DNA of 64,000 nucleotides, taken from NCBI GenBank assembly GCA_002772535.1, contig PFDP01000003.1, positions 3,962 to 67,961 of the forward strand, read 5' to 3'. Origin of the DNA: Candidatus Peregrinibacteria bacterium CG10_big_fil_rev_8_21_14_0_10_36_19. Its GTDB lineage: Bacteria; Patescibacteriota; Gracilibacteria; UBA1369; LOWO2-01-FULL-3. Made by a program: the position numbers and the translations under genes. A model generated the notes under the pieces. It saw only the letters and a program-made list of their open reading frames with translations, made no database searches and was not told the DNA's origin. Below, in pieces: positions 28,488 through 52,209 of the stretch; positions within the stretch are counted from its first letter, which is position 1, and each line of letters opens with the position of its first letter.

Positions 28488-29459
28488 CTAGTAATAATTA
28501 CCAGGGTATTGTTTCACACCATTTTGGCTAACTTCCCAGTGAAGATGTATTCCAGTAACACCATATACACGACCAGTGTTACCCATCATACCAATCACAT
28601 CACCCTGAGATACTTGTTGACCATTGTAAGCATATACATCGCTCATATGTGCGTATAGTGTTTTAAGTCCATTTCCATGATCGATAATCACATGGTTACC
28701 ATATCCACCACCCCAAGTTCCTGTAGATACTTTTACAACTGTACCACCACCAGCCGCCCAAATAGGAGGTTTACTTCTATCTGCAATGTCAAAAGCGTAG
28801 TGACCAGCTTGGAATCCTTGTGTGATTTTACCACTTGTAGGGAATATAAACACTTTCCCTGGTGATGGAGCTGTTGAGCTTCCAGCAAGGCTTCTAGCGG
28901 TAGATCTTGTTGTTGAAGGTGCTCTTGCTGCCACAGTAGGTGCTACAACTATAGGTTCTGCCCCAGGTAGGAATAATGTTTGACCTTTAGCAATAACCTC
29001 AGATTCAAGACTGTTTTGAGCCAAGATGCTGTCAGTATCAATTTTATATTTTTTCGCAATTTTTGTGATTGAATCTCCGCTCTGAACTTCGTAACTAATT
29101 CCATCAATAGGTGGTATCAAAAGTTTTTGACCAACCCTTACGCTATGAGCATTGCTCAGCTTATTTTCCCACATAATAGTAGAAACATTAACGCCATATT
29201 GTTCTGCAATTACAGAAAGAGATTCTCCTTTATCTACTGTGTGAACGGCAAAATCTGTTAATTCTGCACGATTTGAGGCATCTGTTTGAGGGTTCATCTT
29301 TACCAAATAACCATCTATATCTGCCACCAATACATCTCCAACTCCATATGAATCTATATAGTCACTATTATAACCAAAAGAAGACGCAGTATATGTTCCT
29401 CCTGGTGTTAAAGACATTGAAATAAGAGCTACCATAGATAAGGTGGCAGCTTGGAACAT
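28488..29459 (-). CDS. LysM-domain M23 family metallopeptidase
   Basis: 323 aa. Two LysM repeats ([29 protein letters not shown]...GQKLLIP; [27 protein letters not shown]...GQTLFLP). The M23 core is [20 protein letters not shown]...[21 protein letters not shown]. Confidence 0.85.
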
Positions 29460-30878: not shown

Positions 30879-30900
30879 AGTTTAGCTCAAAATCGATTAA

Positions 30901-30926
30901 AGCCCTTTTCAAAAGGGGCTTTTTTT
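30901..30926 (+). terminator. Rho-independent terminator after rpsR
   Basis: AGCCCTTTT-ca-AAAGGGGCT hairpin followed by TTTTTT. Confidence 0.7.
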
Positions 30927-30934
30927 GGTATAAT
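30926..30934 (+). promoter_or_regulatory. Extended -10 element (TGgTATAAT) upstream of the 30959 operon
   Basis: TGGTATAAT lies 25 nt upstream of ATG 30959, directly after the rpsR terminator. Confidence 0.45.
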
Positions 30935-30958: not shown

Positions 30959-31444
30959 ATGACACAAAAATCGTATTACGATCATGAAAAGATTGCATGG
31001 AGAGCTCCAGAGTACATGAAGTACAGAAGAGGGCTGCTTTGGAAAGTAATTGCTGTGCTTTTATTAACCGTATCATCGGTACTAGGATATTTATATATTT
31101 CGTGGACTTTTTCTTTGGCACTAGTGGTTTTTGCGCTTGTATATAGTTTGTTGGATAGGAGAGATCCAGAAATTATTGATGTAATTATTTCTGATTTAGG
31201 CGTGAAAGTAGGCAACAAAAAATATCCGTTTGCAAAAATTCAAGGATTTTGGGTGATCTATAATCCACCCTATGTTTCAACACTAAATCTGAGGATTAAG
31301 GGGCACGCTATTACAGATGTAGAAATCCAACTTTTAGGACAAGATCCATCAAAAGTTCGCGATCTTTTAATTGCTAAAATTCCTGAATATGAAGGCAAAG
31401 ATGAGAGCTTCATAGATGTATTATTAAATGTTTTGAAAATATAA
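30959..31444 (+). CDS. Hypothetical two-TM membrane protein
   Basis: 161-aa ORF. A TM hairpin (LLWKVIAVLLLTVSSVLGYLYI / WTFSLALVVFALVYSLL) is followed by a small soluble domain. It is the first gene of a coupled operon. Confidence 0.6.
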   Translation: MTQKSYYDHEKIAWRAPEYMKYRRGLLWKVIAVLLLTVSSVLGYLYISWTFSLALVVFALVYSLLDRRDPEIIDVIISDLGVKVGNKKYPFAKIQGFWVIYNPPYVSTLNLRIKGHAITDVEIQLLGQDPSKVRDLLIAKIPEYEGKDESFIDVLLNVLKI

Positions 31445-31445
31445 A

Positions 31446-32924
31446 ATGGCAGATTTACCAAATCAAAATCCGAATAATTCTGAAGCGATTGTAAATCGCG
31501 AAATAGCTGAACAAGAGAAGTTGAGACAGGTTGATTTTCTGAAAGAGCAAATGAGAAAAATTCGTTATGCGCTTAGTGATACTGTTTCTCAAAAAACAGA
31601 GCGTGAAAAATTTGCTGCTGCCCAAGCATTGAAAAAGTTTGATGACATTATTCTTAAAAAGGGAGATCAATGGCTTGAAGCTATTAATCGTAATTTGAAC
31701 AATGGTTCTGCTTTAACAACATTAAGAGCAGAAACAGATATTATTGAAAGAGAAATAGCTGATGATGTAGCCACAATTGAATCATATATGGGTAAAATGA
31801 ATGTTATCCATGAGAATGATTTATCGGCTATGCTTAATAGTTCAGTGCATAGTTCACAGAAAATTGCCGAACTAATTCTTGAAAAAAATAATTATCCAGA
31901 AATCATAGATGCTTTGAAATATGTTTTGAACCGTGGAGGAGACAAAAATCAAGCATTCCAAACCTTTGAAATGCACTTATCATCAGAGAATTCAGAGGTT
32001 AAGTCTTATATTTGGACAGTAATGTCATTCCTAAATGGGGAAGAGAAAATTGAATTTGCAAAAGAACATACGAAAAAGAACAATTTAGACTCTCAAAATT
32101 TATTAAGCTTTTTAGAGGAAGGAAATAAATATGGTGTTTATTCACACACAGAAATGCAAGAAGTTTTAGAAGAAACTCAAAAATATGATTCTATTAAAAA
32201 GGATTTTGATAAGAAAAAGGAACAATATGCCGCTGCATACAAGATCACAAACGACTTTAAAGATGATGCATTGAGGCTATCTGGCTCAAGTTATGGGTCT
32301 AAAAATGCAGCACTGGAAGCTCTTAATATAAAAAATGGTATTTTGTTTGTTGCACAATTGGCAGCAGGGTTAACGATTGTTGGTAATATAGCCGCAAATG
32401 TTTTTGAAGCTGGTAAGTTTCACCCAAGAAATATTAAATATGCCTTTAATGATCCTACTAAAGTTGCTTTAGCAGCCTTAGTGGGTATTAGCAAAAGAAA
32501 TGAACTGGGTGAATTTTTTAAGGGTAGTGCCGATAGAAAAGCGGATGCAAATCAAAAAAATCGTCAAAATTTTAAAAACGTAATCAGTTCAAACGCGGAA
32601 GTTGTGCCTTTTTTGAAAGGAAGCGAAACTTATTCAGGTACAAAAGCACTATATGAATACTCTAACTATGTTTACCAAACCTATGCCGATGGTGGAGATT
32701 TTCCGGAAAGTATGGCTACAAAACAAGGCTTTGAAACATGGCTAAAGGTAAAAGGTAGAAGTTCAGATAATCCAGAACTATATAGAGAAGTGATTACAAA
32801 ACTTAAAAACTCAAAAATCAATGATGAGGAGCTAGGCACTTTAGCAAAAACGATGAGGGCATTAAATATTAAAGATGCTGCCAGTTATAACAAAGAAATT
32901 GAGGTAATTAAAAAAACAATATGA
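31446..32924 (+). CDS. Hypothetical coiled-coil protein with central hydrophobic segment
   Basis: 492-aa ORF starting 1 nt after the previous stop. It has a helical/charged N-terminal half and one clear TM-like segment (GILFVAQLAAGLTIVGNIAANVF). No family recognised. Confidence 0.6.
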   Translation: MADLPNQNPNNSEAIVNREIAEQEKLRQVDFLKEQMRKIRYALSDTVSQKTEREKFAAAQALKKFDDIILKKGDQWLEAINRNLNNGSALTTLRAETDIIEREIADDVATIESYMGKMNVIHENDLSAMLNSSVHSSQKIAELILEKNNYPEIIDALKYVLNRGGDKNQAFQTFEMHLSSENSEVKSYIWTVMSFLNGEEKIEFAKEHTKKNNLDSQNLLSFLEEGNKYGVYSHTEMQEVLEETQKYDSIKKDFDKKKEQYAAAYKITNDFKDDALRLSGSSYGSKNAALEALNIKNGILFVAQLAAGLTIVGNIAANVFEAGKFHPRNIKYAFNDPTKVALAALVGISKRNELGEFFKGSADRKADANQKNRQNFKNVISSNAEVVPFLKGSETYSGTKALYEYSNYVYQTYADGGDFPESMATKQGFETWLKVKGRSSDNPELYREVITKLKNSKINDEELGTLAKTMRALNIKDAASYNKEIEVIKKTI

Positions 32925-33163
32925 TAGATCAAACAGCAAAATCAGAACCGCGTGTAGTAAACACAGATTATGGACAAAGAAAATTTGTACAATCGGCGGT
33001 TATACAAGAGCAAAAACCCCGTCCAGCTTCTGGAGGGTGGAAATATGTTCGTAGAACGGTTGCAGGTATGTCGGCAACACTTTTGCCAATCATGCTTGCA
33101 CATAATTCTGATGCTGCGGAATATCATACTTTCGTTGAAAAAATTATAAAACTAGCCTTATAA
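32921..33163 (+). CDS. Small hypothetical protein
   Basis: 80-aa ORF. It has an ATGA overlap with the upstream gene, and its stop abuts the next ATG. It contains a weak hydrophobic segment (VAGMSATLLPIMLA). Confidence 0.45.
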   Translation: MIDQTAKSEPRVVNTDYGQRKFVQSAVIQEQKPRPASGGWKYVRRTVAGMSATLLPIMLAHNSDAAEYHTFVEKIIKLAL

Positions 33164-35560
33164 ATGATTAAAACAAACATCAAAACTTGGTTTAAGAAAA
33201 GTTTAATAGCAATATTTGTAGCTTCAACGATTTTAAGTGTTTCTACACCTGTTTTGAGCGCTGAACTTGGTATTAACAATGTAAAAGTTGCTTATGCGGC
33301 TGATCCAGCCCCAGCTGCAACCCCAGCTGCAAAACCAGCTGCCGCCGAAACCGCCGCCGCTCCAGCACAAACAGCAGATGCGAGCAAACAAATCGATGAT
33401 ACTCTTAAGAATTCTGTTGCCTTTATGATCTCTCTTGAAAAAGTGTTAAACAAGCTCCTTTGGCCTGTTTTGGTACTTATTGGAGGGCTTTTGGATAATA
33501 GTATTTTGTTTGGTAGTGGTATGGAGGAGAGATTGAGAGAAATTTGGGTTCCTGTAAGGAATCTAGTAAATATTCTTTTTGTTATCGCATTACTCGGTAT
33601 CGCTCTCTACAACGTGCTTGGACTCGGAGATGAAAGTGGAAACTACTCTATTAAGAGTATTTTGCCGAAAATTATTGTGGGTATTATAGTTGTAAACTTT
33701 TCTTTCGTTGGAATTAAAGTGTTTTTAGATTCAATTAATGTGCTTACAACCTCAATTTTTGCATTACCAGACCAAGTTGATGAGGGACTTTCTTCAATAT
33801 TAGACCCTAAAACTCCCGAGGATTATGACAAAGTTGCAAGATTCTGTAAATCCTATCAAGGAAAATCACCAGGTGAAAAAATCAGTGATGAAACTCTTAG
33901 AGGTGAAGCTGAAACTGTTATTTATAGAGAATTAAGTAAAAAATATGCCAGCGATTCTTTGAAGGGAAGTAATGTTGCTTTGAGTCCAAACGATTCAAAG
34001 GCGGTTATGAAAACCAAGGTTTACGATAAATTATCAGCTTCTGCTAAGGTAAGATTCGACGGTGAATTTACCGAGAGAAAAAACAGTTTAATTTGTGACG
34101 GTACAGTACTTGGCACTCAAGGAAAACTATTCCTACAAAAATACAATAGCCGTAATGCTTCTTTAGCAATGGCTTTAAACATGACAAATATTTTATTCTA
34201 TGATGACATTTCTCTAGGAGTAGATACCGTAGAAAAATTTGCAATTAACACTATTTTCTCACTTGCACTGTACTTAATATATGTAGCCTCTTTTATTGCA
34301 CTTTTCGTTGTTTTATTAGCGAGGCTTGTGGTGATGTGGGTATCTATTGCCCTTTCCCCAGTGCTTTTATTGGGGTTAGCTGTACCAGTAATTAAAGAAA
34401 AAATCTCCAGTTTTGGAGAAGTTACTGACCAATTTATGCAAAACGCCATCGCACCTTTAGGAATTGCAGTATCTATGACAATAGGATGGATTATGCTTTC
34501 AGCCCTAAAATCTATTAATACTTTTGATACAGTAAATGCTATCTACTTTAATTCCGCTTCAGGAATTCCTGTGGTTGGTGTTAGCACTCTACAAGAATTA
34601 ATTGTAGCGCTTGGAACCGTTGCAGTAATTTGGATGGCCGTCTTTACTGCAGCCAGTAAGAGTATTGCAGCTCCTGTAACAGAGGCAATTAAAGGCGGAC
34701 TACAAAGCGCCGGTAAATGGGTTGGAACAACCCCATTAAGAAACATGCCTATGTTCCCAATTACTATTGCTGGAAAGAGTCAAGACTATACTGCTAACCA
34801 AGTACTTGATGCACTTGGACATTTGAGCCAAGATCAACATAGACAAGACCTTACAAATAGAATTTTAAATAGATCAGAAGATTTTGGTACTGCGGGATTA
34901 TTCAGAAATCCACCTGCAACTGCAGATGATTTTATGAAGAAAGTATTAGAGGCTAATAGAGATAGGAAAGTGGTTGGGCTTGATCCAGAGACAATGAAAG
35001 CGCTCAAGGACTTTAGAAATAATGATAATTATAGAGGCCTAAAAATGAATTCTACAGCTGAAGGTGCAAGAATAGAAAAGGCTATTGATACTGCTTTAGC
35101 AGGTTTTGATAGTTCAGATGAGTCAGTAAGAAAGGATGCTGCGAAAGCTGCACAAGAGGCTGTAAATCTAATGCGTAATCACCTACTAGGAAAAGGTATT
35201 AATCCAGACGCACCAAACACACCAGCAAGCAATCCATCTAATGCTTCAGCGGTAAATGCAGGTACTTCGTGGGGAGGGCAAAGGTTAAACCAAAGATTTA
35301 ATGGAAGAACAAATCAAATGAACGCCGCAATCCAAGCTATCAATAATGCCATGACAAAACTTGATAAGGCTACAACTGTTCCAGAAGCTGAGGCTGCCAT
35401 TAGAGAAATTGCAAATACTCCAGGTGGAGCAACAGTAACAGCCGACGAAATTAAGAACGCAAATGCAGCAGCCTTTAACAAAGCAGAAAGTTTACTTGGC
35501 AAAGGAGGAGTTGATGCTACACTAAATACAGCTAGAACAACACCTACAACAACACCATAA
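33164..35560 (+). CDS. Hypothetical polytopic membrane protein with Sec signal peptide, Ala/Pro-rich linker and long C-terminal tail
   Basis: 798 aa. Signal peptide (KKSLIAIFVASTILSVSTPVLSA), an AADPAPAATPAAKPAAAETAAAPAQ linker, at least 7 hydrophobic helices between about 33420 and 34680, then a polar tail of about 280 aa. No catalytic motif seen. Confidence 0.65.
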   Translation: MIKTNIKTWFKKSLIAIFVASTILSVSTPVLSAELGINNVKVAYAADPAPAATPAAKPAAAETAAAPAQTADASKQIDDTLKNSVAFMISLEKVLNKLLWPVLVLIGGLLDNSILFGSGMEERLREIWVPVRNLVNILFVIALLGIALYNVLGLGDESGNYSIKSILPKIIVGIIVVNFSFVGIKVFLDSINVLTTSIFALPDQVDEGLSSILDPKTPEDYDKVARFCKSYQGKSPGEKISDETLRGEAETVIYRELSKKYASDSLKGSNVALSPNDSKAVMKTKVYDKLSASAKVRFDGEFTERKNSLICDGTVLGTQGKLFLQKYNSRNASLAMALNMTNILFYDDISLGVDTVEKFAINTIFSLALYLIYVASFIALFVVLLARLVVMWVSIALSPVLLLGLAVPVIKEKISSFGEVTDQFMQNAIAPLGIAVSMTIGWIMLSALKSINTFDTVNAIYFNSASGIPVVGVSTLQELIVALGTVAVIWMAVFTAASKSIAAPVTEAIKGGLQSAGKWVGTTPLRNMPMFPITIAGKSQDYTANQVLDALGHLSQDQHRQDLTNRILNRSEDFGTAGLFRNPPATADDFMKKVLEANRDRKVVGLDPETMKALKDFRNNDNYRGLKMNSTAEGARIEKAIDTALAGFDSSDESVRKDAAKAAQEAVNLMRNHLLGKGINPDAPNTPASNPSNASAVNAGTSWGGQRLNQRFNGRTNQMNAAIQAINNAMTKLDKATTVPEAEAAIREIANTPGGATVTADEIKNANAAAFNKAESLLGKGGVDATLNTARTTPTTTP
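33305..33365 (+). repeat. Imperfect 12-nt tandem repeat (CCCCAGCTGCAA-like) encoding the Ala/Pro linker
   Basis: ccagccccagctgcaaccccagctgcaaaaccagctgccgcc... is a locally GC-rich, low-complexity coding repeat. Confidence 0.6.
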
Positions 35561-38500
35561 TGACTAATCAAGAATTACAAAAAGATCCGGCAAAGTTAAG
35601 TGTAATTCCAGAGCTTCAAACTCTGGCAAATAATGGAGGTCAAAATTCCGAAGCATACGCGATTACCCAATTGGCAGCTGAGGGAAAGATTGATCAAAAA
35701 GCCCAAATGAAGATTGCTAAAACACTAGGCAATCCGAATAAAATGAAAAGCAAAGGGTACCAGTATTTAATGAAAAGCATTGCCAAAAATAAATTTGGCA
35801 AAATTTCTAGCACTGTAACATCTCTTTTAGACGCCCTAAGTATGGGTGGAAAGGCGGAAGAATTTGCAACAGAAGAACTACGAAAAATTAGTGCTTCCGA
35901 ATATGGGCCAATGTCTTCTCTTAATGAAAAGAAGCTCCTTAAAAATGTAAGTGAAGCTATTGAGGAGCAAATTAAACTTGAGGCAATTCAAAGTACTGGT
36001 GCTAAGGCAAATGCTGTTTTAGATAAGAACGAAAATAGTAGTCGACTTGATTCAATTTTGAAGTTGGAAATAGACAATTTGAAAGTTCCAAACATGCCGG
36101 CAGATTTAGTAAAAAAACTAGATGAATATGGTATTAAAGAATATGAATTAGTAAAGAAGGCATTACCAAAGTATAAACAACTCAAGGATTTATATGCTCA
36201 ATTGGAGTCCGACCCAACAGTAAAATCAAAAATAGATACTCTAAATTCTGAGTTAGAAAAAATAGAAGAACAAGTTTCAAATTTAAGAAATGAAGCACAA
36301 GAATTTAGAGATGAACAGATTGGTTATTTTAATATGGTTCTTAAACTTTTAAGAGACTGTGAATTAACTAAAAGTGAAGTCGGAATCAATCCAGCCAATA
36401 CAGAGAATATCTTTATGAGAGAAGAGATTTCTAAGCTTAAAATCAAGAAAGTATCTGTGGTTAAGGATGAAGATAAAAGTGTTGGCGATCCAACAGAAAC
36501 CGGCGTTGAAATTCTGATAACTTATGTGGATAAAAATGGAAAAGAGCAAACTGCAGATTCACTTGTTTTTAGAAAAATGCTTATGGCAGCTGATGCTGAA
36601 AGTGAAGATGTTAGGATCGAGGATATTCCTGGTTTAAAAGAAGGAGCTGTGTATCAAACGAGTCAACTTGTTGATCCAAATTCCACACATAAAGAGTTGA
36701 AAAAATTTACTGTAAAAAGAATTTATCAAGATGCTAACGGACAAACTCTAATAGAGCTAGATAAGCCTGTTTTAAAAACCTCAAAAAACAAGCTACCAAA
36801 TTCCATGGATGATAGTGTTCGACACGATAGGGTGGAGCAAACATACACACCAGGAGGGTTTTTCAAGCTCATTAACACAAATGATTATCGTCCAGAAAAG
36901 TCACCAAAAAATCCTCAAATAAAACCAACGATCCTTAAAAATGACAATGCTAATAATAAGCGTAAATTCCTAGCTGGTGGGGCAAATACCCCGTCGATTA
37001 ATGGTAACGATGAAGGACAAAATGATGATAAATTACCAGAATTAGATGGACCAACTGGAGTGAGAGGAAGGCCTGAAGCTTTACAATTTGATGAAGTTTT
37101 TAAAGCTGGTGATATGACATTTGGTGAAAGAAATGTGATTGAAAACATTTGGATGAATACAAGATTTCTTTCTGTAGGTGATTTATGGGAAATGGGTAAA
37201 TCCATGTATGAATATTATATTCGCCGTTTTGAGCGTAGACAAAAGGAAAAATACTCTACTATTGGTCAAGAATTGCCATTTTTTGCTCCGGAGATGCGTC
37301 GTGTAAATCAATCAGCAGAAACTGAACAAGTACAGCAATTTATAGATTCATTTGATCAAAAAGGTGTATATGAAATTCAAGATCGTCTTAGACTTACAAC
37401 CAATAGAGATGAAATGAAAGCCGCATTTACTACCCTTACAAACAAAGGGCAAATGAGGTGGGATGATATATCGATGTGGAACAATTTAAACAAATTTCTT
37501 GATGATAGTAAAAAAATACCTATACCAAAAAATGGTGATCCTTATACAGTAGTCTCTAAAACAGACAAAAGAAATGGTATGGAATTTATGAAAGATGCCA
37601 TTGATTCAATATGGGGAGAAGGTTCATATAATGATTGGTATAGTAAAAACAAATCTACATTCCGTTCTAACTCTCAAGGGTATGCGGAAGAAGGTAAAGA
37701 GTTGGAAAATCTTGATGGTGGACACCGCAGAAAGTTATCTTTCCTACTCAAAGAACACAAAGAGGGAAGATATGTTGATCCTCATGAGTATGAAGGTTTG
37801 ATCATTCATGCCATTGATAATGGTAAAGCTGGCATGGAAGATAAATTATATTACATGATCGCAGGGGTTGCTTATGAGAATGATTCGGGTAGAACTATAT
37901 TAAGTATGGATCGTATGGCGCATATTAACTCTGAAATGCTTGGTAAATTCCCAATACTTGATTACATATGTGCCAGTGTTAAACGTAAAGATGGTGGAAG
38001 TCATAAATTCACCAAAGATGATTATAAGCAATGGCTTAAATATTTTGATCAGGGCGATCCTACAAATTGCGTACCTACACAGGGCGTACATGATTATCTT
38101 TGGAGATACATTTTACCTAGTGATGAAACCCAAAACCGTATCAATAAAGCTCTAAGGGATGCTGAGCGTATTGATCATGAGGATTTATATGTATATGTAC
38201 CACCGGCAACTGAAAGTGTGGTTAAAAATATGTGTCAAGCCTCTGCTGGTAATAAAAAATATGCTACGGTTAAAGGTTATGCAAATGTATTCCCAGGTTT
38301 TAGTAAGTATTTAAAAGAGCTATCTGAAGCTGGAAATAAGAAAAAATTAGTTGAAGGTATTAAATCATATGTTGTTTATGCCGGAATATTAACAAACAGA
38401 TTTGAAAAAGCTAAAGGTGATAGTTATCAAAGACTTGATGTAAACACATTAAATTCACGCACGATTATGACACCAGAAACACCAAAACAGCTTATGGAAG

Positions 38501-38748
38501 AAATGGATAATGCAATTAAGAAAATTGTTTATGCGTATGGTGATAGGGAGTTAATAGAAATGGTTGAAAAAATGTATACCAAAACAGGGAATATTGAATT
38601 AGATCCGGATGAAAGAAAGAAACAACAAGATATAGATTATGCTTTCCAGGCATTTGGTGAAAAATTTCACCAAGTAGTTGGATCTGATGGAGGGGAAAAG
38701 ATGATCAATATAATGGCAAGTGCTAATCTTACAGGTATGAGTTTCTAG
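35560..38748 (+). CDS. Large hypothetical soluble protein (1062 aa)
   Basis: The start overlaps the upstream stop (TAATG). The N-terminal third looks coiled-coil. I could see no TM segment, P-loop or HExxH motif. Confidence 0.65.
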   Translation: MTNQELQKDPAKLSVIPELQTLANNGGQNSEAYAITQLAAEGKIDQKAQMKIAKTLGNPNKMKSKGYQYLMKSIAKNKFGKISSTVTSLLDALSMGGKAEEFATEELRKISASEYGPMSSLNEKKLLKNVSEAIEEQIKLEAIQSTGAKANAVLDKNENSSRLDSILKLEIDNLKVPNMPADLVKKLDEYGIKEYELVKKALPKYKQLKDLYAQLESDPTVKSKIDTLNSELEKIEEQVSNLRNEAQEFRDEQIGYFNMVLKLLRDCELTKSEVGINPANTENIFMREEISKLKIKKVSVVKDEDKSVGDPTETGVEILITYVDKNGKEQTADSLVFRKMLMAADAESEDVRIEDIPGLKEGAVYQTSQLVDPNSTHKELKKFTVKRIYQDANGQTLIELDKPVLKTSKNKLPNSMDDSVRHDRVEQTYTPGGFFKLINTNDYRPEKSPKNPQIKPTILKNDNANNKRKFLAGGANTPSINGNDEGQNDDKLPELDGPTGVRGRPEALQFDEVFKAGDMTFGERNVIENIWMNTRFLSVGDLWEMGKSMYEYYIRRFERRQKEKYSTIGQELPFFAPEMRRVNQSAETEQVQQFIDSFDQKGVYEIQDRLRLTTNRDEMKAAFTTLTNKGQMRWDDISMWNNLNKFLDDSKKIPIPKNGDPYTVVSKTDKRNGMEFMKDAIDSIWGEGSYNDWYSKNKSTFRSNSQGYAEEGKELENLDGGHRRKLSFLLKEHKEGRYVDPHEYEGLIIHAIDNGKAGMEDKLYYMIAGVAYENDSGRTILSMDRMAHINSEMLGKFPILDYICASVKRKDGGSHKFTKDDYKQWLKYFDQGDPTNCVPTQGVHDYLWRYILPSDETQNRINKALRDAERIDHEDLYVYVPPATESVVKNMCQASAGNKKYATVKGYANVFPGFSKYLKELSEAGNKKKLVEGIKSYVVYAGILTNRFEKAKGDSYQRLDVNTLNSRTIMTPETPKQLMEEMDNAIKKIVYAYGDRELIEMVEKMYTKTGNIELDPDERKKQQDIDYAFQAFGEKFHQVVGSDGGEKMINIMASANLTGMSF

Positions 38749-38761
38749 ATTTGCCTAGGTG

Positions 38762-38790
38762 TTGACACTTTGCGTTAAAAGTGCTTTAAT
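38762..38790 (+). promoter_or_regulatory. Putative internal promoter upstream of the 744-aa gene
   Basis: TTGACA (38762-38767), a 17-nt spacer ending in TGc, and TTTAAT (38785-38790). The spacer contains the small hairpin CACTTT-gcgtta-AAAGTG. Confidence 0.4.
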
Positions 38791-38811
38791 TAAGCATTAA
38801 AACTATGAAAT

Positions 38812-41046
38812 ATGAGAGGATTAGATAACCCAATAGATGGTTTGCCACAAGATATACTTAGTAGCAATCATCCTGAAGGAGTTAAACCACAGGCTGTTGC
38901 TTTACATCTTGTAGATGATGATTTGGAAGGAATAAAAAGTCCTAATCCAAAATCAGTAATACGCTATTCAAAAAGTTTAATTTTTGCACAATTACAGAGG
39001 GATCGTTCAATAATTAAGGCACTACCTATTCTTCATAAAGATCCACATGAAGACCAAACATTTAAGCGTGGGATACTTGAAAAATTGAGTTCAACTTTAG
39101 ATATGATCAGACCAGCGTCAGAGCAATTGAGAGGTATTTCTCAGAGTGCATTAGAGTATAATATAAAACCTAGTAGTTTATCTAAAGCTCTTGGTACAGA
39201 AGAAATACTTGGATTATTGATTGACCAAGTAATAGATTACAAGGATTCCAAACCAAAAAAACATAGACAGCCAACAAATATCAATGCTCCTGAGAAAAAG
39301 AATGTTGATGGTGAAGTTGCCACAAAATGTGAGGAATTTTTAAATTTCTTTATTCAAAATTATGATCCAAAATCGAGTGAAAGAAGTTTATTTAAATTCA
39401 TTCGAGCCCTTGAAAAAAAATATAGTGAATATGATATCAAGGCATGGCTTAAGGTCAACAAAGCACAGTTAATCAAATTAATTGGTGGGGAAAACAATGC
39501 CAACATTAAAAAAATTGTTAATGATAGCTTTCTTGATTTTGCAAAATCCCAGGGAAGAGAAGATGATTACATAAGATTAATTTGTGAAGATTTGCCAACA
39601 CTAAATATTGATGATGAGCAAGAAATGTACAAATTTATCAATTCACTCAAGGATATTTTTAGCCAATGGGTTAGTGGTGAGCATAGCAAATTATTGGTTT
39701 CAAAAAAATGTGATCCAACAAAAATTAGAGCTGTAATTACTAGCTATCTAATAGATTTATATCCTGAAATGGATGAGTTAAGAATTAAGAATATTGTACA
39801 CAAAGCAACTAGTCATGTAGTTACTGCAAGTCATATTAACGACTTTATTAGTGATCCAAGAAACATTCCAGAAGATTTAGATAGAGATTACAAAGCAATT
39901 TATAGCAGTGGTGAGCTCGATGACAAAGCCTATGCAAAATTACTTAAAGGTACTTTTGCTATTATGGAAGAATATCAATTAGAAGGTGGTAAAACTGTAG
40001 TTACAAAAACGGAAAATTTGGCAACTCTTAAAAAGAGGCTTGGTGAGTTTTTTGCAATGGCTAATGATCAGGTTCATAAAGAGTTTAATGATGCTGGGTT
40101 AGGCGAATTGAAATTACACCCTACAGTAGAAGGTGCCAATGACTATGCCGAGCTGATAAGAATATCTATGGAAAGTAATGATCCTAAAATTGCTTGGGAT
40201 GCTAGAGTAAAAATTGGTACTGCCTTTTCAATTTATCAAACTGCCTATAGTAGAACATTTCAATTTAGGGAATATGATGCCAAACAAATTGAAATAAGAA
40301 TGACAACTCCAAACGATGGAATTAAATTTAAAAAAGGCGATTTGCAAGAAGTTTTATTTATCGAAAATGGTGGAAATCCACAGCAGGTAGGTGAAAGTTA
40401 TGTGGGAGATGAAAGAGTTAAGAAAATGAATTTATTAAATACTACAATAAATGGTGTTCAATGTTATCTAATGCCTACAACTGAAGGATCTAAAACAGAC
40501 TTTATTGGTGTTAAATCTATGAGTAGTTGTGTAGGTAAACAGGTGAGAAATGGTGTTACTCCAGAAACAACTACAGATATGCAGCGTGCTACAATAGCTT
40601 ATGAAAATGAGGATCAAAAAGAGGCCATAGTAGATTACTTGCGAACTCATTATTTTGGAATGTTTAGAAAAATTGAGTTTAAAGTTTATGGAAAAGGTAA
40701 GCACTCAGAAAATACTGCTGCAGAATATGAAGCAGAAAAATACTCTCTTAAAGTTTTGATATCATATGGAAACCCATTAGATCATTTACATTCTGCGTAT
40801 TTCGTAACTGTTGAAATAAGATTTTTAGATATAAAAAATGCTATTAGGGAGCGTAGCGATACTCACAAGGCGAGCCATAAAGTATTCGAAAAGAAAAGAT
40901 CACGTGCCGTTGTTGAAAAATATAGACCTCGAAGTTTATTCCCAGAGTTATACGAAAAAAATGAACCAAATGAAAACGACATTGTGGGACAACAACTAAA
41001 TGCTGAAGGTCATCCAACATATTCTCTTAGGAAAAAATTATCCTAA
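38812..41046 (+). CDS. Large hypothetical soluble protein (744 aa)
   Basis: Long uninterrupted ORF and the last gene of the operon. No recognisable motif. Its 3' end overlaps the convergent thrS by 9 nt. Confidence 0.6.
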   Translation: MRGLDNPIDGLPQDILSSNHPEGVKPQAVALHLVDDDLEGIKSPNPKSVIRYSKSLIFAQLQRDRSIIKALPILHKDPHEDQTFKRGILEKLSSTLDMIRPASEQLRGISQSALEYNIKPSSLSKALGTEEILGLLIDQVIDYKDSKPKKHRQPTNINAPEKKNVDGEVATKCEEFLNFFIQNYDPKSSERSLFKFIRALEKKYSEYDIKAWLKVNKAQLIKLIGGENNANIKKIVNDSFLDFAKSQGREDDYIRLICEDLPTLNIDDEQEMYKFINSLKDIFSQWVSGEHSKLLVSKKCDPTKIRAVITSYLIDLYPEMDELRIKNIVHKATSHVVTASHINDFISDPRNIPEDLDRDYKAIYSSGELDDKAYAKLLKGTFAIMEEYQLEGGKTVVTKTENLATLKKRLGEFFAMANDQVHKEFNDAGLGELKLHPTVEGANDYAELIRISMESNDPKIAWDARVKIGTAFSIYQTAYSRTFQFREYDAKQIEIRMTTPNDGIKFKKGDLQEVLFIENGGNPQQVGESYVGDERVKKMNLLNTTINGVQCYLMPTTEGSKTDFIGVKSMSSCVGKQVRNGVTPETTTDMQRATIAYENEDQKEAIVDYLRTHYFGMFRKIEFKVYGKGKHSENTAAEYEAEKYSLKVLISYGNPLDHLHSAYFVTVEIRFLDIKNAIRERSDTHKASHKVFEKKRSRAVVEKYRPRSLFPELYEKNEPNENDIVGQQLNAEGHPTYSLRKKLS

Positions 41047-48669: not shown

Positions 48670-48700
48670 AAACCCTTCAATACGAAGGGTTTTGTCTTTT
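48670..48700. terminator. Bidirectional hairpin terminator between convergent units
   Basis: AAACCCTTC-aatac-GAAGGGTTT followed by a T-rich tract. It sits between the plus-strand small genes and the stop of the minus-strand operon (48699). Confidence 0.65.
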
Positions 48701-49817
48701 ATTTTGAAATAGGGCACTGCTTGCTATTTATTGTTGCAGCACAACCTTTCAGATCTGAAAGAGGTTTTAAATTATCACTAAGTGCCTTATTTACCCTTTC
48801 TAGCTCCTCAGTAAAGCTAATATTTGCTCCATCTGATCCTACCTTATACAAAACCTCAAATGTGCTTTTTAAATTTGCTCTCATTACATTTAGGTCATAG
48901 TTACTCTCTGAGGAACTCAAAGCATTTAATAGATCGCTTTGAGTTACCACCTGTGAGCTAGGAGTATATTTTGTTTTTAAATCACTAAGTATTTGGGCAA
49001 CACCACTTTTAGAGCCTAAATTGTTCACATTTACACTTACCAAGCCTTTAAAATAAGATTCTAATCCTATATCTGTTATGGCTTCTACTAATTTTTCTTT
49101 CCTTCCACCAATTGCTTTTTCCGCATTTTTGAGTGCTGGTTTAGCACCTGCAGCATTATCCAAAAATTGTTTCCATCTCTTTTCTACAGTTGCCCAAGAT
49201 GAATTTTCACATTTTATATAGGTTTTTTTTCTATCAGAATATTTGTTTTCCAACTTGTTAAAAAAATTATCTAATTCACTAGATTTAATATAACCAGGAT
49301 CAAAATAGCGAGATTGTATCTCAGACTTAATTGTTTTTGATGGAGTGTATAAACTATCTTCATCTTCCAGTGACCTTGTGGTTAAAACTTCTGCTGGTAA
49401 GTTCACAACCACTTTTCCATCAACAACATTCCTTACATAATATATTTCAGCGCTTAGCTTGTATAAGGCGCTTTTTAGCTGTGGCAGTTTTTCTGTATTA
49501 CATGTTAAAAAAGCGTCTCTTATGTAATTTTTTACTTTATCTCTCTGGTTTATAAGGTTACTTACATCGTTACCCTGACACTGATTCCTAAAAAGGAAAT
49601 CATTAAATGGTTCTATGGTGCTATTAATAACACCGTCTGCAAATGTCATCGACTGTAGGAATGCAATAAATTCTAAATTCCCCTTTGCAGCGCATTGCGC
49701 CACCACTAATTTGTCGCCACTAAACGGTACTAATTCCTTATCAGCTGCATGCGCAACATTTGTACTAAGTACTAGAATTGTAACCAAAATAAAGTTGTAT
49801 ATTAATTTCTTCATCAT
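48699..49817 (-). CDS. Secreted hypothetical protein (372 aa), Cys-containing helical protein
   Basis: Signal peptide MMKKLIYNFILVTILVLSTNVAHA, a helical/charged body, and the C-terminal LKGCAATINSKQCPISK. 4-nt overlap with the upstream gene. Confidence 0.65.
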   Translation of the reverse strand: MMKKLIYNFILVTILVLSTNVAHAADKELVPFSGDKLVVAQCAAKGNLEFIAFLQSMTFADGVINSTIEPFNDFLFRNQCQGNDVSNLINQRDKVKNYIRDAFLTCNTEKLPQLKSALYKLSAEIYYVRNVVDGKVVVNLPAEVLTTRSLEDEDSLYTPSKTIKSEIQSRYFDPGYIKSSELDNFFNKLENKYSDRKKTYIKCENSSWATVEKRWKQFLDNAAGAKPALKNAEKAIGGRKEKLVEAITDIGLESYFKGLVSVNVNNLGSKSGVAQILSDLKTKYTPSSQVVTQSDLLNALSSSESNYDLNVMRANLKSTFEVLYKVGSDGANISFTEELERVNKALSDNLKPLSDLKGCAATINSKQCPISK

Positions 49818-51574
49818 TGAATATTAGGTTTTTTACCGATTTCCTTACATACTTTAGCAGTATCATTGAAAAGCTTATTATAGCTCTCAAAAAATGTTGC
49901 CAGTCCTTCTAGCTCTTTCAACACCACTTGTGCATAAAGTTTTGTATTCATAGCATCGCTACTGGCTTGAATCGCCTCAATATCTTTTAAAGCAGCAGCA
50001 CTTTCAGCATTAATACTAGATTCCAACTGATTCAAAATATCTAACTGAGTTGTATCCTTAGTTGATGATGAAGTCGCAGATTTAATGTATGTTTCACCCT
50101 TTGGTAATAATAAAGGCTGATATCTAGTTACAAACTTGTTCCATTCATCAAAAATATTTCTTCCAAAAATTAAGTCATCATTTGGAGGAGTTGGGACAGG
50201 CGCTTTAATAGTTACAAATTTCATATCTAAAAGTGGTTCATATGCTTGCTTGCATTTAGTGCTTTCAAGCAAATTACCAGTTACTTTATTCGGCACCAAA
50301 CTATGTGAAAGCGTTTTATCAAGTACTAGGTTTATTTTTTCAATTTCACATAAAATACAAGTATCCGAAGGTAGATAGCTTGATACAGTTTGTTTAATAT
50401 ATTCAACTTCTAAACACACAGAAAAGTGTTTTTTTAATATAGGTTCTTTATTTATTGCCTTTGCTGACTGTTCCAAAATAGCCGTTGATGTACCACCTAA
50501 GCTTTTAAAATTACCACTACCGGTAAAACCAATATTTGGATCAGCAACATTTCCCTCAAGAATTGGACACCAATTTTGTAACCAGTTTCCAGGATTTGCA
50601 GGCTCAAGATTTTGCGCTGTTAATTTATTGTTAGCATTTTTAGTATCACTATTTGCATTAGCAGCTGGATCCACTTGAGAGTTACCAGAACTGCTACTAA
50701 TTTCATTTGCTATAGTCTTATCTACATACACATCTATTGCTTTGCTCAATGGCACTTTTAGAGGAGATGGACACACATCATTTATTAACACATTCACATC
50801 CACACTAGATTCGCCAACCTTAATTTTTACATTACCAGCTTTAATTGAACCATTTATTACATCTTTTTTAGCAACTTTACTTTCTGCAATACTATTCGTA
50901 CTTGAAGCAAAATTATTTATAGTTGCAGCAGGATTTTCATTTGCAATGTAATCGTTAATTGTTTGTTCACGCTCAGTAGGTAAATAGGGTGTTGGTAATT
51001 GTACTTGGTAAGGCTGACCCAAAGTATTTTTCACAACTTTCACAAATAGAATTTCTTCCATAACTTCTATGTCATGAACTAAGTCAAAACCACTATCACT
51101 CAAATCACCATTGCTAAACATTTCACTTGGCCTAGTAGCAAGATCCAATTCTTGCTGTAATTCATACAAATCTTTTAGTCTTTCATAATCTTCAACCACA
51201 TTTTCCATTATTTGAAATGCTTTTTCTTGAGTCATATTGCCACCATTGAAGTTGGGGTTACTAAAAATAGGCGTTTTCGTACCATTCTTAACTTGATTAA
51301 CTTCTGCAACAGTAAGTCCATAAGACTTTGCAACTTCCTTGATTGCATCTCTTTCAGGTTTTTCAAGCGCTTTTTCATGAACCAGAGCATAAATATTTTT
51401 TCCATTTGATCCACTATTAAAGACATCATTCCAATCAAATAAATCACCATTAGCAACTATTGTATCCCATAAACCAAGTTCTGCATGAGAAACTTCAACA
51501 GGTTTCACATAGATCAAAACAGTGAGTGCAATCACACAAATCATTAAACCAAAAATGTTATTTTTCATTGTCAT
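49814..51574 (-). CDS. Secreted hypothetical protein (586 aa)
   Basis: Signal/anchor MTMKNNIFGLMICVIALTVLIYV...SHA, several Cys pairs, and the C-terminal helical region ...LEGLATFFESYNKLFNDTAKVCKEIG. 4-nt overlaps on both sides. Confidence 0.65.
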   Translation of the reverse strand: MTMKNNIFGLMICVIALTVLIYVKPVEVSHAELGLWDTIVANGDLFDWNDVFNSGSNGKNIYALVHEKALEKPERDAIKEVAKSYGLTVAEVNQVKNGTKTPIFSNPNFNGGNMTQEKAFQIMENVVEDYERLKDLYELQQELDLATRPSEMFSNGDLSDSGFDLVHDIEVMEEILFVKVVKNTLGQPYQVQLPTPYLPTEREQTINDYIANENPAATINNFASSTNSIAESKVAKKDVINGSIKAGNVKIKVGESSVDVNVLINDVCPSPLKVPLSKAIDVYVDKTIANEISSSSGNSQVDPAANANSDTKNANNKLTAQNLEPANPGNWLQNWCPILEGNVADPNIGFTGSGNFKSLGGTSTAILEQSAKAINKEPILKKHFSVCLEVEYIKQTVSSYLPSDTCILCEIEKINLVLDKTLSHSLVPNKVTGNLLESTKCKQAYEPLLDMKFVTIKAPVPTPPNDDLIFGRNIFDEWNKFVTRYQPLLLPKGETYIKSATSSSTKDTTQLDILNQLESSINAESAAALKDIEAIQASSDAMNTKLYAQVVLKELEGLATFFESYNKLFNDTAKVCKEIGKKPNIQ

Positions 51575-52209
51575 TTGCAGGTTGGTGAAGTGGCATCAAT
51601 AAATTTTCCAGGGAAGCGGTCTACTTCTTCTCTTACATTCTTTATTGCTACTTTAAATTTATTCAAAGATTTAATAATTTTCTCATACTCCAAATGCATT
51701 GGATAAGCTGTTTTATATTCATCATAAACCTTTAATGCTTCCTCCATTACAACTTTTGCATCTTCAATTTCCTTTTCTATTTTGGCATCCCTTAAACTTA
51801 CATCACTAAATATTGATTCAAGTTTTGAACTATTATCAAGTTTTGGCAATTTTGATTTTACTTCTAACAATGTTTTTACATAGCTCATATATAAATCTAA
51901 AGCCCCCATTGATACACAATAACTGCTAACATTTGTTTCACTACATTCTCCGTCTGATTTAAAGTCAGGACTATTCACATAATTCTTTGTTTTAATTAAT
52001 TTCAAAAACAAATCTACTTTTTCATTAAAGTAATCATTCATTGTATTGTGATAATTACGCCTCACCGTTTCAAAAGAATCTCCATTATCTGCAAATCCAT
52101 CAATGTATTCATTAATGGTATCAGCATAAATTACATATCCACTATACCCAGTTACAACAACGATTGCTGCTATCATCAAACTCCAAATTGTATTTTTAAA
52201 ATTTTTCAT
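51571..52209 (-). CDS. Secreted/anchored hypothetical helical protein (about 212 aa)
   Basis: I prefer ATG 52209 (MKNFKNTIWSLMIAAIVVVTG...), which forms a TAATG overlap with the upstream stop. The track start is 52224. The C-terminus is ...VDRFPGKFIDATSPTCK. Confidence 0.6.
   Translation of the reverse strand: MKNFKNTIWSLMIAAIVVVTGYSGYVIYADTINEYIDGFADNGDSFETVRRNYHNTMNDYFNEKVDLFLKLIKTKNYVNSPDFKSDGECSETNVSSYCVSMGALDLYMSYVKTLLEVKSKLPKLDNSSKLESIFSDVSLRDAKIEKEIEDAKVVMEEALKVYDEYKTAYPMHLEYEKIIKSLNKFKVAIKNVREEVDRFPGKFIDATSPTCK

What the first reader, a model, noticed from the sequence alone, without database searches (positions are those of the whole stretch)
30959..41046. About 10-kb six-gene operon of entirely unrecognisable proteins with membrane components in a core-genome context (candidate novel envelope system A)
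The genes are stitched together: a 1-nt gap at 31445, an ATGA overlap at 32921, abutting TAA-ATG at 33163/33164, and a TAATG overlap at 35557-35561. Only one 63-nt gap exists, and it carries a promoter-like TTGACA-17-TTTAAT. The products are:
- a 2-TM protein of 161 aa;
- a 492-aa coiled-coil protein with a central hydrophobic hairpin;
- an 80-aa protein;
- a 798-aa Sec-signal polytopic membrane protein;
- soluble proteins of 1062 and 744 aa.
I found no P-loop, HExxH, catalytic triad context or other known signature in about 3300 residues. The block lies between rpsF-rpsR and thrS, and I see no integrase, repeats or compositional break, so it looks like a lineage-specific core machine. My guess is an envelope-spanning secretion, attachment or cell-cell contact apparatus.
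Basis: partly seen in the sequence, partly recalled or inferred. Interest (0 to 1): 0.75.

Follow-up and report, generated by a model that had tools for sequence, protein, structure and literature searches.

The report
VirB6-centred membrane gene block in Peregrinibacteria
This is a real, vertically inherited gene block of an uncultivated ultra-small bacterial lineage (Peregrinibacteria). It is built around a very divergent relative of the type IV secretion channel protein VirB6, with unknown partner proteins and, in about half the genomes, an alarmone-synthetase-like enzyme.

Summary
The six ORFs and their junctions are exactly as described. The block is not "entirely unrecognisable".

- **g4 (798 aa)** is a divergent member of the polytopic VirB6/TrbL-like family. 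In other CPR classes this family sits about 1.8 kb upstream of virB4 (hhalign 99.4%, E 5e-22).
- **g6 (744 aa)** ends in a RelA/SpoT-type nucleotidyltransferase domain (hhalign 96.3%, E 2e-9; Pfam RelA_SpoT in 4 of 13 relatives).
- **g1** is a 2-TM protein with faint PH-like/DUF matches. VirB3 is not supported.
- **g3** is a short form of a variable "slot-3" protein. This protein is fused in frame to g4 in three other sequences.
- **g5** carries a 560-aa all-helical domain, 50-58% identical across the lineage. It has no sequence or fold relative.

The order M23 - rpsF - rpsR - g1 - g2 - slot3 - g4 - g5 - (g6) - thrS - recF is kept in more than 40 Peregrinibacteria/Peribacteria genomes. The core is g1-g5. 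An RSH-like gene follows g5 in 15 of 33 informative loci.

No VirB4 lies nearby. No other family of the canonical CPR T4SS neighbourhood matches g1, g2, slot3, g5 or g6.

Best reading: a lineage-specific membrane complex with a VirB6-type hub, an offshoot of the CPR type IV machinery. Whether it secretes anything is inferred, not shown.

The parts
30899..30922 (+). Intrinsic-terminator-like hairpin (10-bp stem, 4 GC pairs) followed by a T-run. It closes the rpsF-rpsR unit just upstream of g1.
30906..30934 (+). Promoter-like TTTTCA-17-TATAAT with a TG extended -10, 25 nt upstream of the g1 ATG. A consensus match only.
   Evidence: the promoter-like count in the region equals chance
30959..31444 (+). 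g1, 161 aa. N-terminal W-x-A-P-E motif, two adjacent TM helices (about 30-65), then a C-terminal domain of about 90 aa. Conserved at 28-48% identity and always next to g2.
   Evidence: Pfam on 39 relatives: DUF6232 6, DUF5673 3, VirB3 2, bPH_7 1, all below cut-off
31446..32924 (+). g2, 492 aa. Coiled-coil-rich N-terminal half, a central hydrophobic hairpin (about 299-350), then a C-terminal domain of about 130 aa. That domain recurs as the N-terminal domain of the long slot-3 proteins.
   Evidence: hhalign g2 against slot3big 96.2%, E 2e-9
32921..33163 (+). g3, 80 aa. A short form of the variable slot-3 protein. It keeps only the basic stretch, the hydrophobic hairpin and the C-terminal tail.
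   Evidence: The slot3big HMM matches the small slot-3 proteins at E 1e-10 to 4e-6, and window g3 only at E 1.2e-3. Slot-3 is fused in frame to g4 in P0045, P0078 and L023. The same 80-aa ORF is called on public contigs
33164..35560 (+). g4, 798 aa. Signal-like N-terminus (AYA|A), Ala/Pro linker, about 7 TM helices, a 160-aa insert with two invariant Cys (C228, C311), and a helical C-terminal region. A divergent VirB6/TrbL-like polytopic membrane protein.
33416..34798 (+). g4 conserved membrane core (residues 85-545). This is the part that aligns with the virB4-adjacent VirB6-like proteins of other CPR classes. Shared motifs: W..iRN.VN..FV..L..iA.YN.L....Y.I...LP..i.gIIaVNFSF and aRlvv.W..iAlSP.
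   Evidence: hhalign A2 against A10 99.0%, E 2.6e-18, 229 columns; against family T7 99.4%, E 5e-22, 263 columns; 5708 representative clusters at E<=1e-3
35560..38748 (+). g5, 1062 aa (1200-1500 aa in most relatives). No TM segment and no signal peptide. Variable coiled-coil N-terminal half, a conserved mid domain, and a conserved C-terminal domain.
37057..38745 (+). g5 C-terminal domain (563 aa as folded). 50-58% identical across the lineage, all-helical, with many invariant charged or His residues (GGH, HK.G..VDPHEYEGL..H, DHDD, PPA, EGYANV.PGF). No sequence or fold relative found.
   Evidence: AF2 pLDDT 78.5, pTM 0.75; Foldseek against PDB and BFVD found no hit at E<=1e-3, TM<=0.21; PDB and Pfam profiles found nothing
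38763..38791 (+). TTGACA-17-TTTAAT in the 63-nt g5-g6 gap. A possible internal promoter for g6, with a weak -10.
   Evidence: not listed by the scan, which requires A at position 2 of the -10
38812..41046 (+). g6, 744 aa. Soluble, with a lineage-specific N-terminal region of about 550 aa and an RSH-like C-terminal domain. Its 3' end overlaps the 3' end of thrS by 9 nt. Accessory: an RSH-like gene follows g5 in 15 of 33 informative loci.
40489..40911 (+). g6 RelA/SpoT-like (RSH) nucleotidyltransferase domain (residues about 560-700). Invariant K568, S569, D589, R592, T594, E668, and nearly invariant (>=90%) R670 and H689, fall on the RSH motifs.
   Evidence: Pfam PF04607 in 4 of 13 family members, best E 8.7e-5. 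hhalign against a 9-sequence RSH profile 93.9%, E 1.6e-7. Combined profile 96.3%, E 2e-9, with controls <=0.4%

Best explanation
**What is shown**

The block encodes a vertically inherited membrane-associated protein set specific to the Peregrinibacteria/Peribacteria lineage of the CPR. Its hub, g4, is a very divergent homologue of the polytopic VirB6/TrbL-like proteins that sit next to virB4 in the type IV secretion clusters of other CPR classes.

g1 to g5 travel together at one chromosomal site. The slot-3 protein (g3 here) is sometimes fused to g4. Part of g2 is duplicated in the long slot-3 proteins.

g5 carries a highly conserved 560-aa all-helical domain without known relatives. g6, present in about half of the genomes, carries a RelA/SpoT-type nucleotidyltransferase domain.

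**What is inferred**

1. g4 oligomerises into a channel or platform in the single cell membrane, as VirB6 does in type IV systems.
2. g1, g2 and g3, all anchored by hydrophobic hairpins, form its membrane collar.
3. g5 docks on the cytoplasmic side. It sits downstream of the VirB6-like gene, where virB4 lies about 1.8 kb downstream in canonical clusters, but it is not an ATPase.
4. The assembly moves or presents macromolecules at the envelope, in the service of the host-dependent life style.
5. The RSH-like g6 is either a cargo toxin, by analogy with Tas1 and toxSAS enzymes, or a local nucleotide-signalling enzyme.

The energy source is unknown. It could be a VirB4 encoded elsewhere in the genome.
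For: - **g4 to VirB6-like.**
  - The g4 HMM hits ORFs next to VirB4 in Saccharibacteria loci at E 5e-17.
  - It also hits an ORF about 1.8 kb upstream of virB4 in 42 of 80 virB4-centred CPR loci.
  - hhalign gives 99.0% and 99.4%.
  - Weak Pfam TrbL hits occur in relatives.
- **Literature.** VirB6 homologues are reported as 'absent, suggesting extreme sequence divergence' in class Gracilibacteria (PMC12102498).
- **Co-inheritance.** The same gene order is seen in more than 40 loci.
- **Physical link of slot-3 and g4.** Three in-frame fusions.
- **g2 and slot-3 share a domain**.
- **g5.** Purifying selection at 50-58% identity, above rpsF. It has a confident model with no fold match.
- **g6 RSH domain**.
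- **Own terminator and promoter upstream of g1**.
Against: - No VirB4, VirD4 or other P-loop protein lies in the block, in the 64-kb window, or within 10 kb in 59 related loci.
- None of the 13 other conserved families of the canonical CPR T4SS neighbourhood matches g1, g2, slot-3, g5 or g6 (all below 5%).
- g4 itself gets no Pfam TrbL hit.
- The g4 model has no PDB fold match (pTM is only 0.43).
- g5 and g6 have no secretion signal, and no immunity-like gene follows g6.
- The fixed position among housekeeping genes fits an essential housekeeping role as well as it fits a host-interaction role.
- No expression, localisation or interaction data were available.
Confidence: 0.5

Rival explanations
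1. Split type IV secretion system. g1-g5 are the membrane sub-assembly of the lineage's ordinary CPR-type T4SS, and they work with VirB4 (and VirD4) genes encoded elsewhere on the chromosome. g1, g2 and g3 would be unrecognisably diverged VirB3-, VirB8- and pilin-type parts.
For: - g4 is VirB6-like.
- PMC12102498 reports VirB4 in 18 of 20 Patescibacteria classes.
- The same paper reports that in class Gracilibacteria the VirB3 and TrsD homologues are mostly not near virB4, and that VirB6 is undetected.
- g1 gives weak VirB3 matches in 2 of 39 relatives.
- An M23/LysM hydrolase is syntenic.
Against: - Profile-profile comparison of g1, g2, slot-3, g5 and g6 with all 13 other families around virB4 gives nothing.
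- The VirB3 signal is no better than several unrelated TM families.
- The presence of VirB4 in these particular genomes was not checked here.
Confidence: 0.25
2. Housekeeping membrane complex. A VirB6-like fold has been recruited for an essential cell-autonomous task, such as envelope or S-layer biogenesis, lipid or wall-precursor handling, or division. It has nothing to do with secretion into or contact with other cells.
For: - Near-universal presence at a fixed site between rpsF-rpsR and thrS-recF, next to an M23/LysM hydrolase and yidD.
- g5 is more conserved than ribosomal protein S6.
- No ATPase, adhesin or effector-trafficking domain.
Against: - The only recognisable hub belongs to a family otherwise tied to virB4 clusters.
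- Slots 3 and 6 vary in length and presence, which is more typical of interaction or effector modules than of core biosynthesis.
Confidence: 0.2
3. Membrane-tethered nucleotide-signalling module. g6 (RSH-like) makes an alarmone-type nucleotide. g5 is its partner, as hydrolase, sensor or scaffold. g1-g4 only anchor or gate this signalling at the membrane.
For: - g6 and the shorter slot-6 proteins carry RSH motifs.
- No canonical long RSH was seen in the window or in about 0.8 Mb of related loci.
- g5 has invariant His/Asp clusters.
Against: - 11 of 33 loci have g1-g5 but no gene between g5 and thrS, so the core works without g6.
- g5 shows no HD-domain or other hydrolase fold match.
- The g6 type has substitutions at three canonical RSH positions.
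Confidence: 0.04
4. Mobile element, prophage remnant or defence island inserted between housekeeping genes.
For: The block consists of large unknown proteins with one variable end. One RSH-like domain is of a kind also used by toxin-antitoxin and defence systems.
Against: - The same site and order occur in more than 40 divergent genomes.
- No integrase, tRNA gene or flanking repeats, and no GC break.
- No PHROG hit.
Confidence: 0.01

Closest known systems
Patescibacteria (CPR) type IV secretion system of the MPF-FATA kind (Quinonero-Coronel et al. 2025, PMC12102498; essential for epibiotic growth of Ca. Southlakia epibionticum according to that paper)
   Same: - A polytopic VirB6-like membrane protein homologous to g4 (99.4% hhalign).
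- Chromosomal and vertically inherited within classes.
- No relaxase.
- The host organisms are monoderm and host-dependent.
   Different: - The block has no virB4 within 10 kb.
- It has no TrsD-, PrgI/VirB3- or VirB2-like gene.
- None of the 13 other neighbourhood families is present.
- It carries four or five lineage-specific proteins instead.
- g4 has a 160-aa insert and a long C-terminal extension.
VirB6/TrbL family (Pfam PF04610; A. tumefaciens VirB6, R388 TrwI, monoderm PrgH/TraL/TcpH)
   Same: - A multi-spanning inner-membrane protein with a large loop and a cytoplasmic tail.
- Weak TrbL matches in close and distant relatives of g4 (E 0.038 to 0.0017).
   Different: - Window g4 gets no Pfam hit at all.
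- No fold match to any solved structure.
- The relation is seen only through the chain g4 to CPR virB4-adjacent family to TrbL.
RelA/SpoT homologue (RSH) synthetase domain: long Rel/RelA, small alarmone synthetases, toxSAS toxins, the T6SS effector Tas1 (the last two from my own knowledge of the literature)
   Same: - The same nucleotidyltransferase domain, with the K..S...K, D, E.R and H..Y positions conserved.
- The short slot-6 proteins have fully canonical RxK, DxxGxRI and EIQI motifs.
- The domain sits at the C-terminus of a larger protein, at the variable end of a membrane-system operon. This resembles toxin-effector arrangements.
   Different: - No HD hydrolase, TGS or ACT domain.
- No adjacent antitoxin or immunity gene.
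- No known trafficking domain.
- The g6 type replaces the Arg of RxK, the Gly of DxxGxR and the Gln of EIQ.
- Below the Pfam cut-off (20.5 against 27 bits), and no PDB sequence hit.
Membrane-anchored bacterial PH-like / DUF6232 / DUF5673 small proteins
   Same: g1 has two TM helices followed by a small domain. Weak matches recur in 6, 3 and 1 of 39 relatives.
   Different: All matches are below the curated cut-offs. The fold was not modelled.

Membership tests
Type IV secretion system (CPR / MPF-FATA type) | VirB4 ATPase encoded in or near the cluster | tested here: not met
   tblastn with two CPR VirB4 proteins found no hit in the 64-kb window or in 59 related loci with up to 10 kb of flank. 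There is no Walker A motif in g1-g6. The rest of the genome could not be searched.
Type IV secretion system (CPR / MPF-FATA type) | VirB6-like polytopic membrane subunit | tested here: met
   g4 against the virB4-adjacent family: hhalign 99.0% (E 2.6e-18) and 99.4% (E 5e-22). The syntenic position of relatives is about 1.8 kb upstream of virB4 in 42 of 80 loci.
Type IV secretion system (CPR / MPF-FATA type) | VirB3/PrgI-like small 2-TM protein | tested here: inconclusive
   g1 scores Pfam VirB3 E 0.019. Only 2 of 39 relatives match (best E 4.8e-3), fewer than match DUF6232. hhalign of g1 against all small families next to virB4 is below 5%.
Type IV secretion system (CPR / MPF-FATA type) | Other conserved neighbourhood families (TrsD-like, pilin-like, hydrolase and others) | tested here: not met
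   13 families built from 80 virB4 loci were compared with g1, g2, slot-3, g5, g6 and s6A. All were below 5% probability. An M23/LysM hydrolase is syntenic but lies across rpsF-rpsR.
Type IV secretion system (CPR / MPF-FATA type) | Coupling protein VirD4 / relaxase | not tested
   None of the six proteins has a P-loop. No genome-wide search was possible.
TrbL/VirB6 (Pfam PF04610) | Match to the curated model above the gathering score | tested here: not met
   Window g4 has no hit. P0007 scores E 0.038. CPR relatives next to virB4 score E 0.0019 and 0.0017, below the 25.9-bit cut-off.
TrbL/VirB6 (Pfam PF04610) | Fold similarity to a solved VirB6 | tested here: inconclusive
   Foldseek of the g4 model against the PDB found no hit at E<=1e-3. 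The model is only moderate, however (pLDDT 68.8, pTM 0.43).
RelA/SpoT homologue (RSH) synthetase domain (Pfam PF04607) | Sequence homology to the synthetase domain | tested here: met
   - Pfam hits in 4 of 13 g6-family proteins (E 8.7e-5 to 2.8e-3). The two listed individually (L013, L019) match the same region.
- hhalign 93.9% and 96.3%, with reversed-profile and other-family controls <=0.4%.
- Window g6 alone gets no Pfam hit.
RelA/SpoT homologue (RSH) synthetase domain (Pfam PF04607) | Canonical catalytic motifs (RxKxxxSxxxK, DxxGxR, EhQIRT, H..YK) | tested here: inconclusive
   - g6 type: the K, S, K, D, E and H positions are kept. The first R, the G and the Q are replaced.
- Short slot-6 type (L015, L020, L024): all motifs are canonical.
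- Activity was not testable.
toxSAS toxin-antitoxin / secreted RSH effector (Tas1-like) | Adjacent antitoxin or immunity gene, or a known trafficking domain | tested here: not met
   g6 is followed directly by convergent thrS, with a 9-nt overlap. There are no Pfam domains in its N-terminal 550 aa.
Mobile genetic element / prophage | Integrase, att repeats, tRNA target, compositional break, variable location | tested here: not met

The most novel reading that the evidence does not exclude
The block is a previously unrecognised kind of envelope translocation machine in CPR bacteria. A VirB6-type channel has lost its dependence on VirB4. It is instead served by a new cytoplasmic component, the g5 all-helical domain, together with lineage-specific membrane partners. 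Among its cargo is an RSH-family nucleotide pyrophosphokinase (g6) delivered into host or competitor cells.
Probability: 0.1. Interest if true: 0.9.

Novelty: new variant of a known kind. Interest (0 to 1): 0.62.

Why it matters
- **The missing VirB6.** CPR bacteria are thought to live off other cells, and their type IV-like machinery is reported as essential for epibiotic growth in the one CPR species where it was tested. The published survey could not find VirB6 in the class that holds Peregrinibacteria. This block supplies a candidate, and shows that it sits in a different genetic company: no ATPase, four lineage-specific partners, and an optional alarmone-synthetase-like protein.
- **A target for structure determination.** The g5 C-terminal domain is a large, strongly conserved protein domain with a confident predicted fold and no known relative.
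- **Testable questions.**
  - Can a VirB6-type hub work without a neighbouring VirB4?
  - Do CPR cells use an RSH-type enzyme as a weapon or as a signal?

Tried and rejected
- **Direct family scans** of the six proteins (Pfam, NCBIfam, PHROGs) gave nothing above cut-off.
- **PDB profile searches** for g4, the g5 C-terminal domain, g5 full length, g6, the short slot-6 proteins and g1 gave only coiled-coil or TM noise.
- **Foldseek** of the g5 C-terminal model against PDB and BFVD, and of the g4 model against PDB, gave no match at E<=1e-3.
- **Full-length g5 protein search** returned only itself. The C-terminal query returned 9 fragments. The index seems to lack long proteins.
- **g1 as VirB3** was rejected as unsupported.
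- **g5 as a degenerate VirB4** was rejected. It has no P-loop, an all-helical model, and no profile match to the VirB4 family T0.
- **g5 as the HD hydrolase partner of g6** was considered because of its His/Asp motifs. It was not supported, as there is no HD-fold hit.
- **Mobile element or prophage** was rejected.
- **The precomputed tag PF19590** on some g4 relatives could not be reproduced with the Pfam copy at hand. I recall it as a TrbL-like family, but did not verify this.
- **A virB4-seeded genome scan** returned only Paceibacteria- or Saccharibacteria-type loci. VirB4 in Peregrinibacteria genomes therefore stays unchecked.
- **Literature searches** found no description of this block.

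Full report
**Observation.** All six ORFs exist on the + strand with the stated lengths and junctions. Gene callers on nine public ENA contigs produce the same 492/80/798/1062-aa products, with no Pfam entry.
- Hydrophobicity confirms a 2-TM g1, a central hydrophobic segment in g2, a signal-like N-terminus plus about seven TM segments in g4, and none in g5 or g6.
- There is no Walker A or HExxH motif.
- GC is flat. There are no tRNA genes and no flanking repeats beyond chance.
- The neighbours are housekeeping genes: yidD-like, an M23/LysM hydrolase, rpsF, rpsR, thrS, recF, a PrsW-family protease, uvrA, mutS and mutL.
- The TTGACA-17-TTTAAT in the 63-nt gap is there. Promoter-like matches are no more frequent than in shuffles, however.
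- A strong terminator hairpin with a T-run (30899-30922), followed by TTTTCA-17-TGgTATAAT, lies between rpsR and g1. This suggests the block is its own transcription unit.

**Lineage and synteny.** g4 has 179 database relatives, all from Peregrinibacteria, Peribacteria or 'Gracilibacteria'-labelled MAGs. A genome scan returned 62 loci.
- tblastn of the window proteins shows the order M23(-) - rpsF - rpsR - g1 - g2 - g4 - g5 - (g6) - thrS(-) - recF in nearly every locus with enough flank.
- ORF maps give:
  - g1 about 180 aa;
  - g2 about 500-560 aa;
  - a 'slot 3' protein of either about 95-130 or about 400-540 aa;
  - g4 about 800-900 aa;
  - g5 about 1200-1500 aa;
  - then either a g6-like gene (about 800-860 aa), a shorter 450-aa gene, or nothing before thrS.
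- Best-segment identities: g5 C-terminal part 50-58% in most loci, rpsF 30-57%, g1 28-48%, g2 and g6 22-31%.
- The block is therefore co-inherited at one site, which excludes a mobile element.

**g4 is VirB6-like.**
- Direct scans are silent.
- Weak g4 matches turned up in three non-Peregrinibacteria loci, two of them labelled Saccharibacteria. In both labelled loci the matched ORFs (749-933 aa, polytopic) lie 2-4 kb from VirB4/TraC-type ATPases. One of them has a Pfam TrbL match at E 0.0019.
- A g4-family HMM hits these ORFs at E 5e-17 to 4e-8.
- A virB4-seeded scan gave 80 further CPR loci. The g4 HMM hits an ORF that ends about 1.8 kb upstream of virB4 in 42 of them.
- Profile-profile comparison of the g4 core with these ORFs gives 99.0% (E 2.6e-18, 229 columns). 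Against the clustered family T7 it gives 99.4% (E 5e-22, 263 columns).
- The alignment covers the N-terminal three helices and the next helix pair. It leaves out a g4-specific insert of about 160 aa that holds two invariant Cys.
- A search of 1.84 billion representatives with the g4 core profile finds 5708 clusters at E<=1e-3 and 536 at E<=1e-30, so g4 belongs to a large superfamily.
- The AF2 model is moderate (pLDDT 68.8, pTM 0.43) and has no PDB match.
- The published survey of Patescibacteria T4SS states that VirB6 homologues are absent in class Gracilibacteria, 'suggesting extreme sequence divergence'. It adds that VirB3 and TrsD homologues there are mostly not near virB4 (PMC12102498). 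That this class includes Peregrinibacteria is my own knowledge of GTDB.
- g4 is a good candidate for that missing protein.

**The rest is not a recognisable T4SS.**
- I clustered the ORFs around virB4 in the 80 loci into 14 conserved families. I then compared each with the g1, g2, slot-3, g4, g5, g6 and short slot-6 profiles.
- Only g4 against T7 scores. Every other pair is below 5%, apart from a 20% g4-T4 match over 42 columns.
- No VirB4 homologue lies in the window or in the related loci.

**g1, g2 and g3.**
- Thirty-nine g1 relatives give scattered sub-threshold Pfam matches: DUF6232 6, DUF5673 3, VirB3 2, bPH_7 1. g1 is a 2-TM protein with a small C-terminal domain, and VirB3 is not supported.
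- g2 keeps a coiled-coil half, a hydrophobic hairpin and a C-terminal domain.
- That C-terminal domain is homologous to the N-terminal domain of the long slot-3 proteins (96.2%, E 2e-9).
- The short slot-3 proteins match the C-terminal tail of the long ones at E 1e-10 to 4e-6. The tail is a basic stretch, a Gly-rich hydrophobic segment, an Ala-rich turn and an amphipathic end.
- Window g3 shows the same pattern only weakly (E 1.2e-3 in a six-sequence set).
- In P0045, P0078 and L023 the long slot-3 protein is fused in frame to g4. This is Rosetta-stone-type evidence that slot-3 proteins act on g4.

**g5.**
- The full-length search found only itself. The C-terminal 563 aa found nine fragments.
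- With these fragments AF2 gives an all-helical model of about 30 helices (pLDDT 78.5, pTM 0.75).
- Foldseek finds nothing at E<=1e-3 in the PDB or BFVD. The best TM-scores are about 0.2, against generic alpha-solenoids.
- PDB profile searches give nothing for the C-terminal domain and only coiled-coil noise for the full-length protein. Pfam scans give nothing.
- Many invariant charged and His residues suggest a binding or catalytic site. I could not name it.

**g6.**
- Scanning relatives revealed Pfam RelA_SpoT in 4 of 13 g6-family proteins, best E 8.7e-5. The two listed individually (L013, L019) match the same C-terminal region.
- I built an RSH synthetase profile from E. coli RelA and eight plasmid-borne Rel/SAS proteins.
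- The g6 C-terminal profile aligns to it at 93.9% (E 1.6e-7, 168 columns).
- Adding the short slot-6 proteins raises this to 96.3% (E 2e-9). Reversed-profile and other-family controls stay at or below 0.4%.
- Invariant K568, S569, D589, R592, T594, E668, with nearly invariant (>=90%) R670 and H689, fall on the RSH motifs.
- The 450-aa slot-6 proteins of L015, L020 and L024 have fully canonical motifs and match the g6 domain at 94.5%.
- Census: an RSH-like gene follows g5 in 15 loci, thrS abuts g5 in 11, 7 are otherwise arranged and 3 are cut by contig ends. g6 is therefore accessory.
- No canonical long RSH was seen in the window or the related loci.

**Interpretation.**
- Shown: a co-inherited five-gene core with a VirB6-type hub, three hairpin-anchored partners of which one is fused to the hub in some genomes, a strongly conserved cytoplasmic protein of unknown fold, and an optional RSH-like enzyme.
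- Inferred: the hub forms a membrane channel or platform as VirB6 does, g5 is its cytoplasmic partner, and the assembly acts at the envelope in host interaction.
- Open: whether it works with a distant VirB4, works without one, or is a housekeeping membrane complex. Also open is whether g6 is cargo, regulator or ordinary alarmone synthetase.
- I file it as a new variant of a known kind. It is related to the CPR type IV machinery through one component only.

Noticed in passing
window 48699-63948 (- strand): A 3721-aa ORF (52783-63948) is followed on the same strand by four ORFs of 194-586 aa with hydrophobic signal-like N-termini (48699-52793). The one that was scanned has no Pfam hit. This is another block of unknowns, possibly a giant surface protein with helpers.
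   Followed up: no
window 28488-29459 (- strand) and the matching position in L002-L058: An M23/LysM peptidoglycan hydrolase is syntenic with the block in almost every related genome (46-68% identity). The published CPR T4SS survey notes VirB1-like proteins with M23 and LysM domains. Whether this hydrolase serves the block is untested.
   Followed up: partly
L023:8525-12334; proteins P0045 and P0078: The long slot-3 protein is fused in frame to the N-terminus of the g4 homologue, giving 1257-1328 aa products in three independent sequences.
   Followed up: yes
g2 residues about 360-490 (window about 32520-32920) and the N-termini of long slot-3 proteins (e.g. L004:4097-5362): The C-terminal domain of g2 and the N-terminal domain of the long slot-3 proteins are homologous (hhalign 96.2%). 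This is a domain duplication within the block. The window's 80-aa g3 has lost this domain.
   Followed up: yes
L001 and L014 (both JACRIB01); L051 and L053 (both JBAZZM01): Two copies of the block, or of g4, occur on different contigs of the same MAG. This is either paralogy or a bin that mixes two related populations.
   Followed up: no
window 957-4843: Adjacent DUF3352 (579 aa) and DUF4012 (715 aa) proteins sit upstream of mutL and mutS. This is a pair of large unknowns.
   Followed up: no
g5 database searches: The word-indexed protein search returned no g5 relative longer than 944 aa, although 36 full-length relatives (about 880-1500 aa) exist in the genome loci. Long proteins seem under-represented in that index, so its negative results for large proteins are weak.
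   Followed up: partly
L072-L151 (virB4-centred CPR loci): The canonical CPR T4SS neighbourhood resolves into 14 conserved families in a fixed order: 257, 296, 537, 759 (VirB6-like), 217, 144, 213, VirB4 606, 148, 338, 296, 418, 448 and 366 aa. Most of them have no annotation here.
   Followed up: partly
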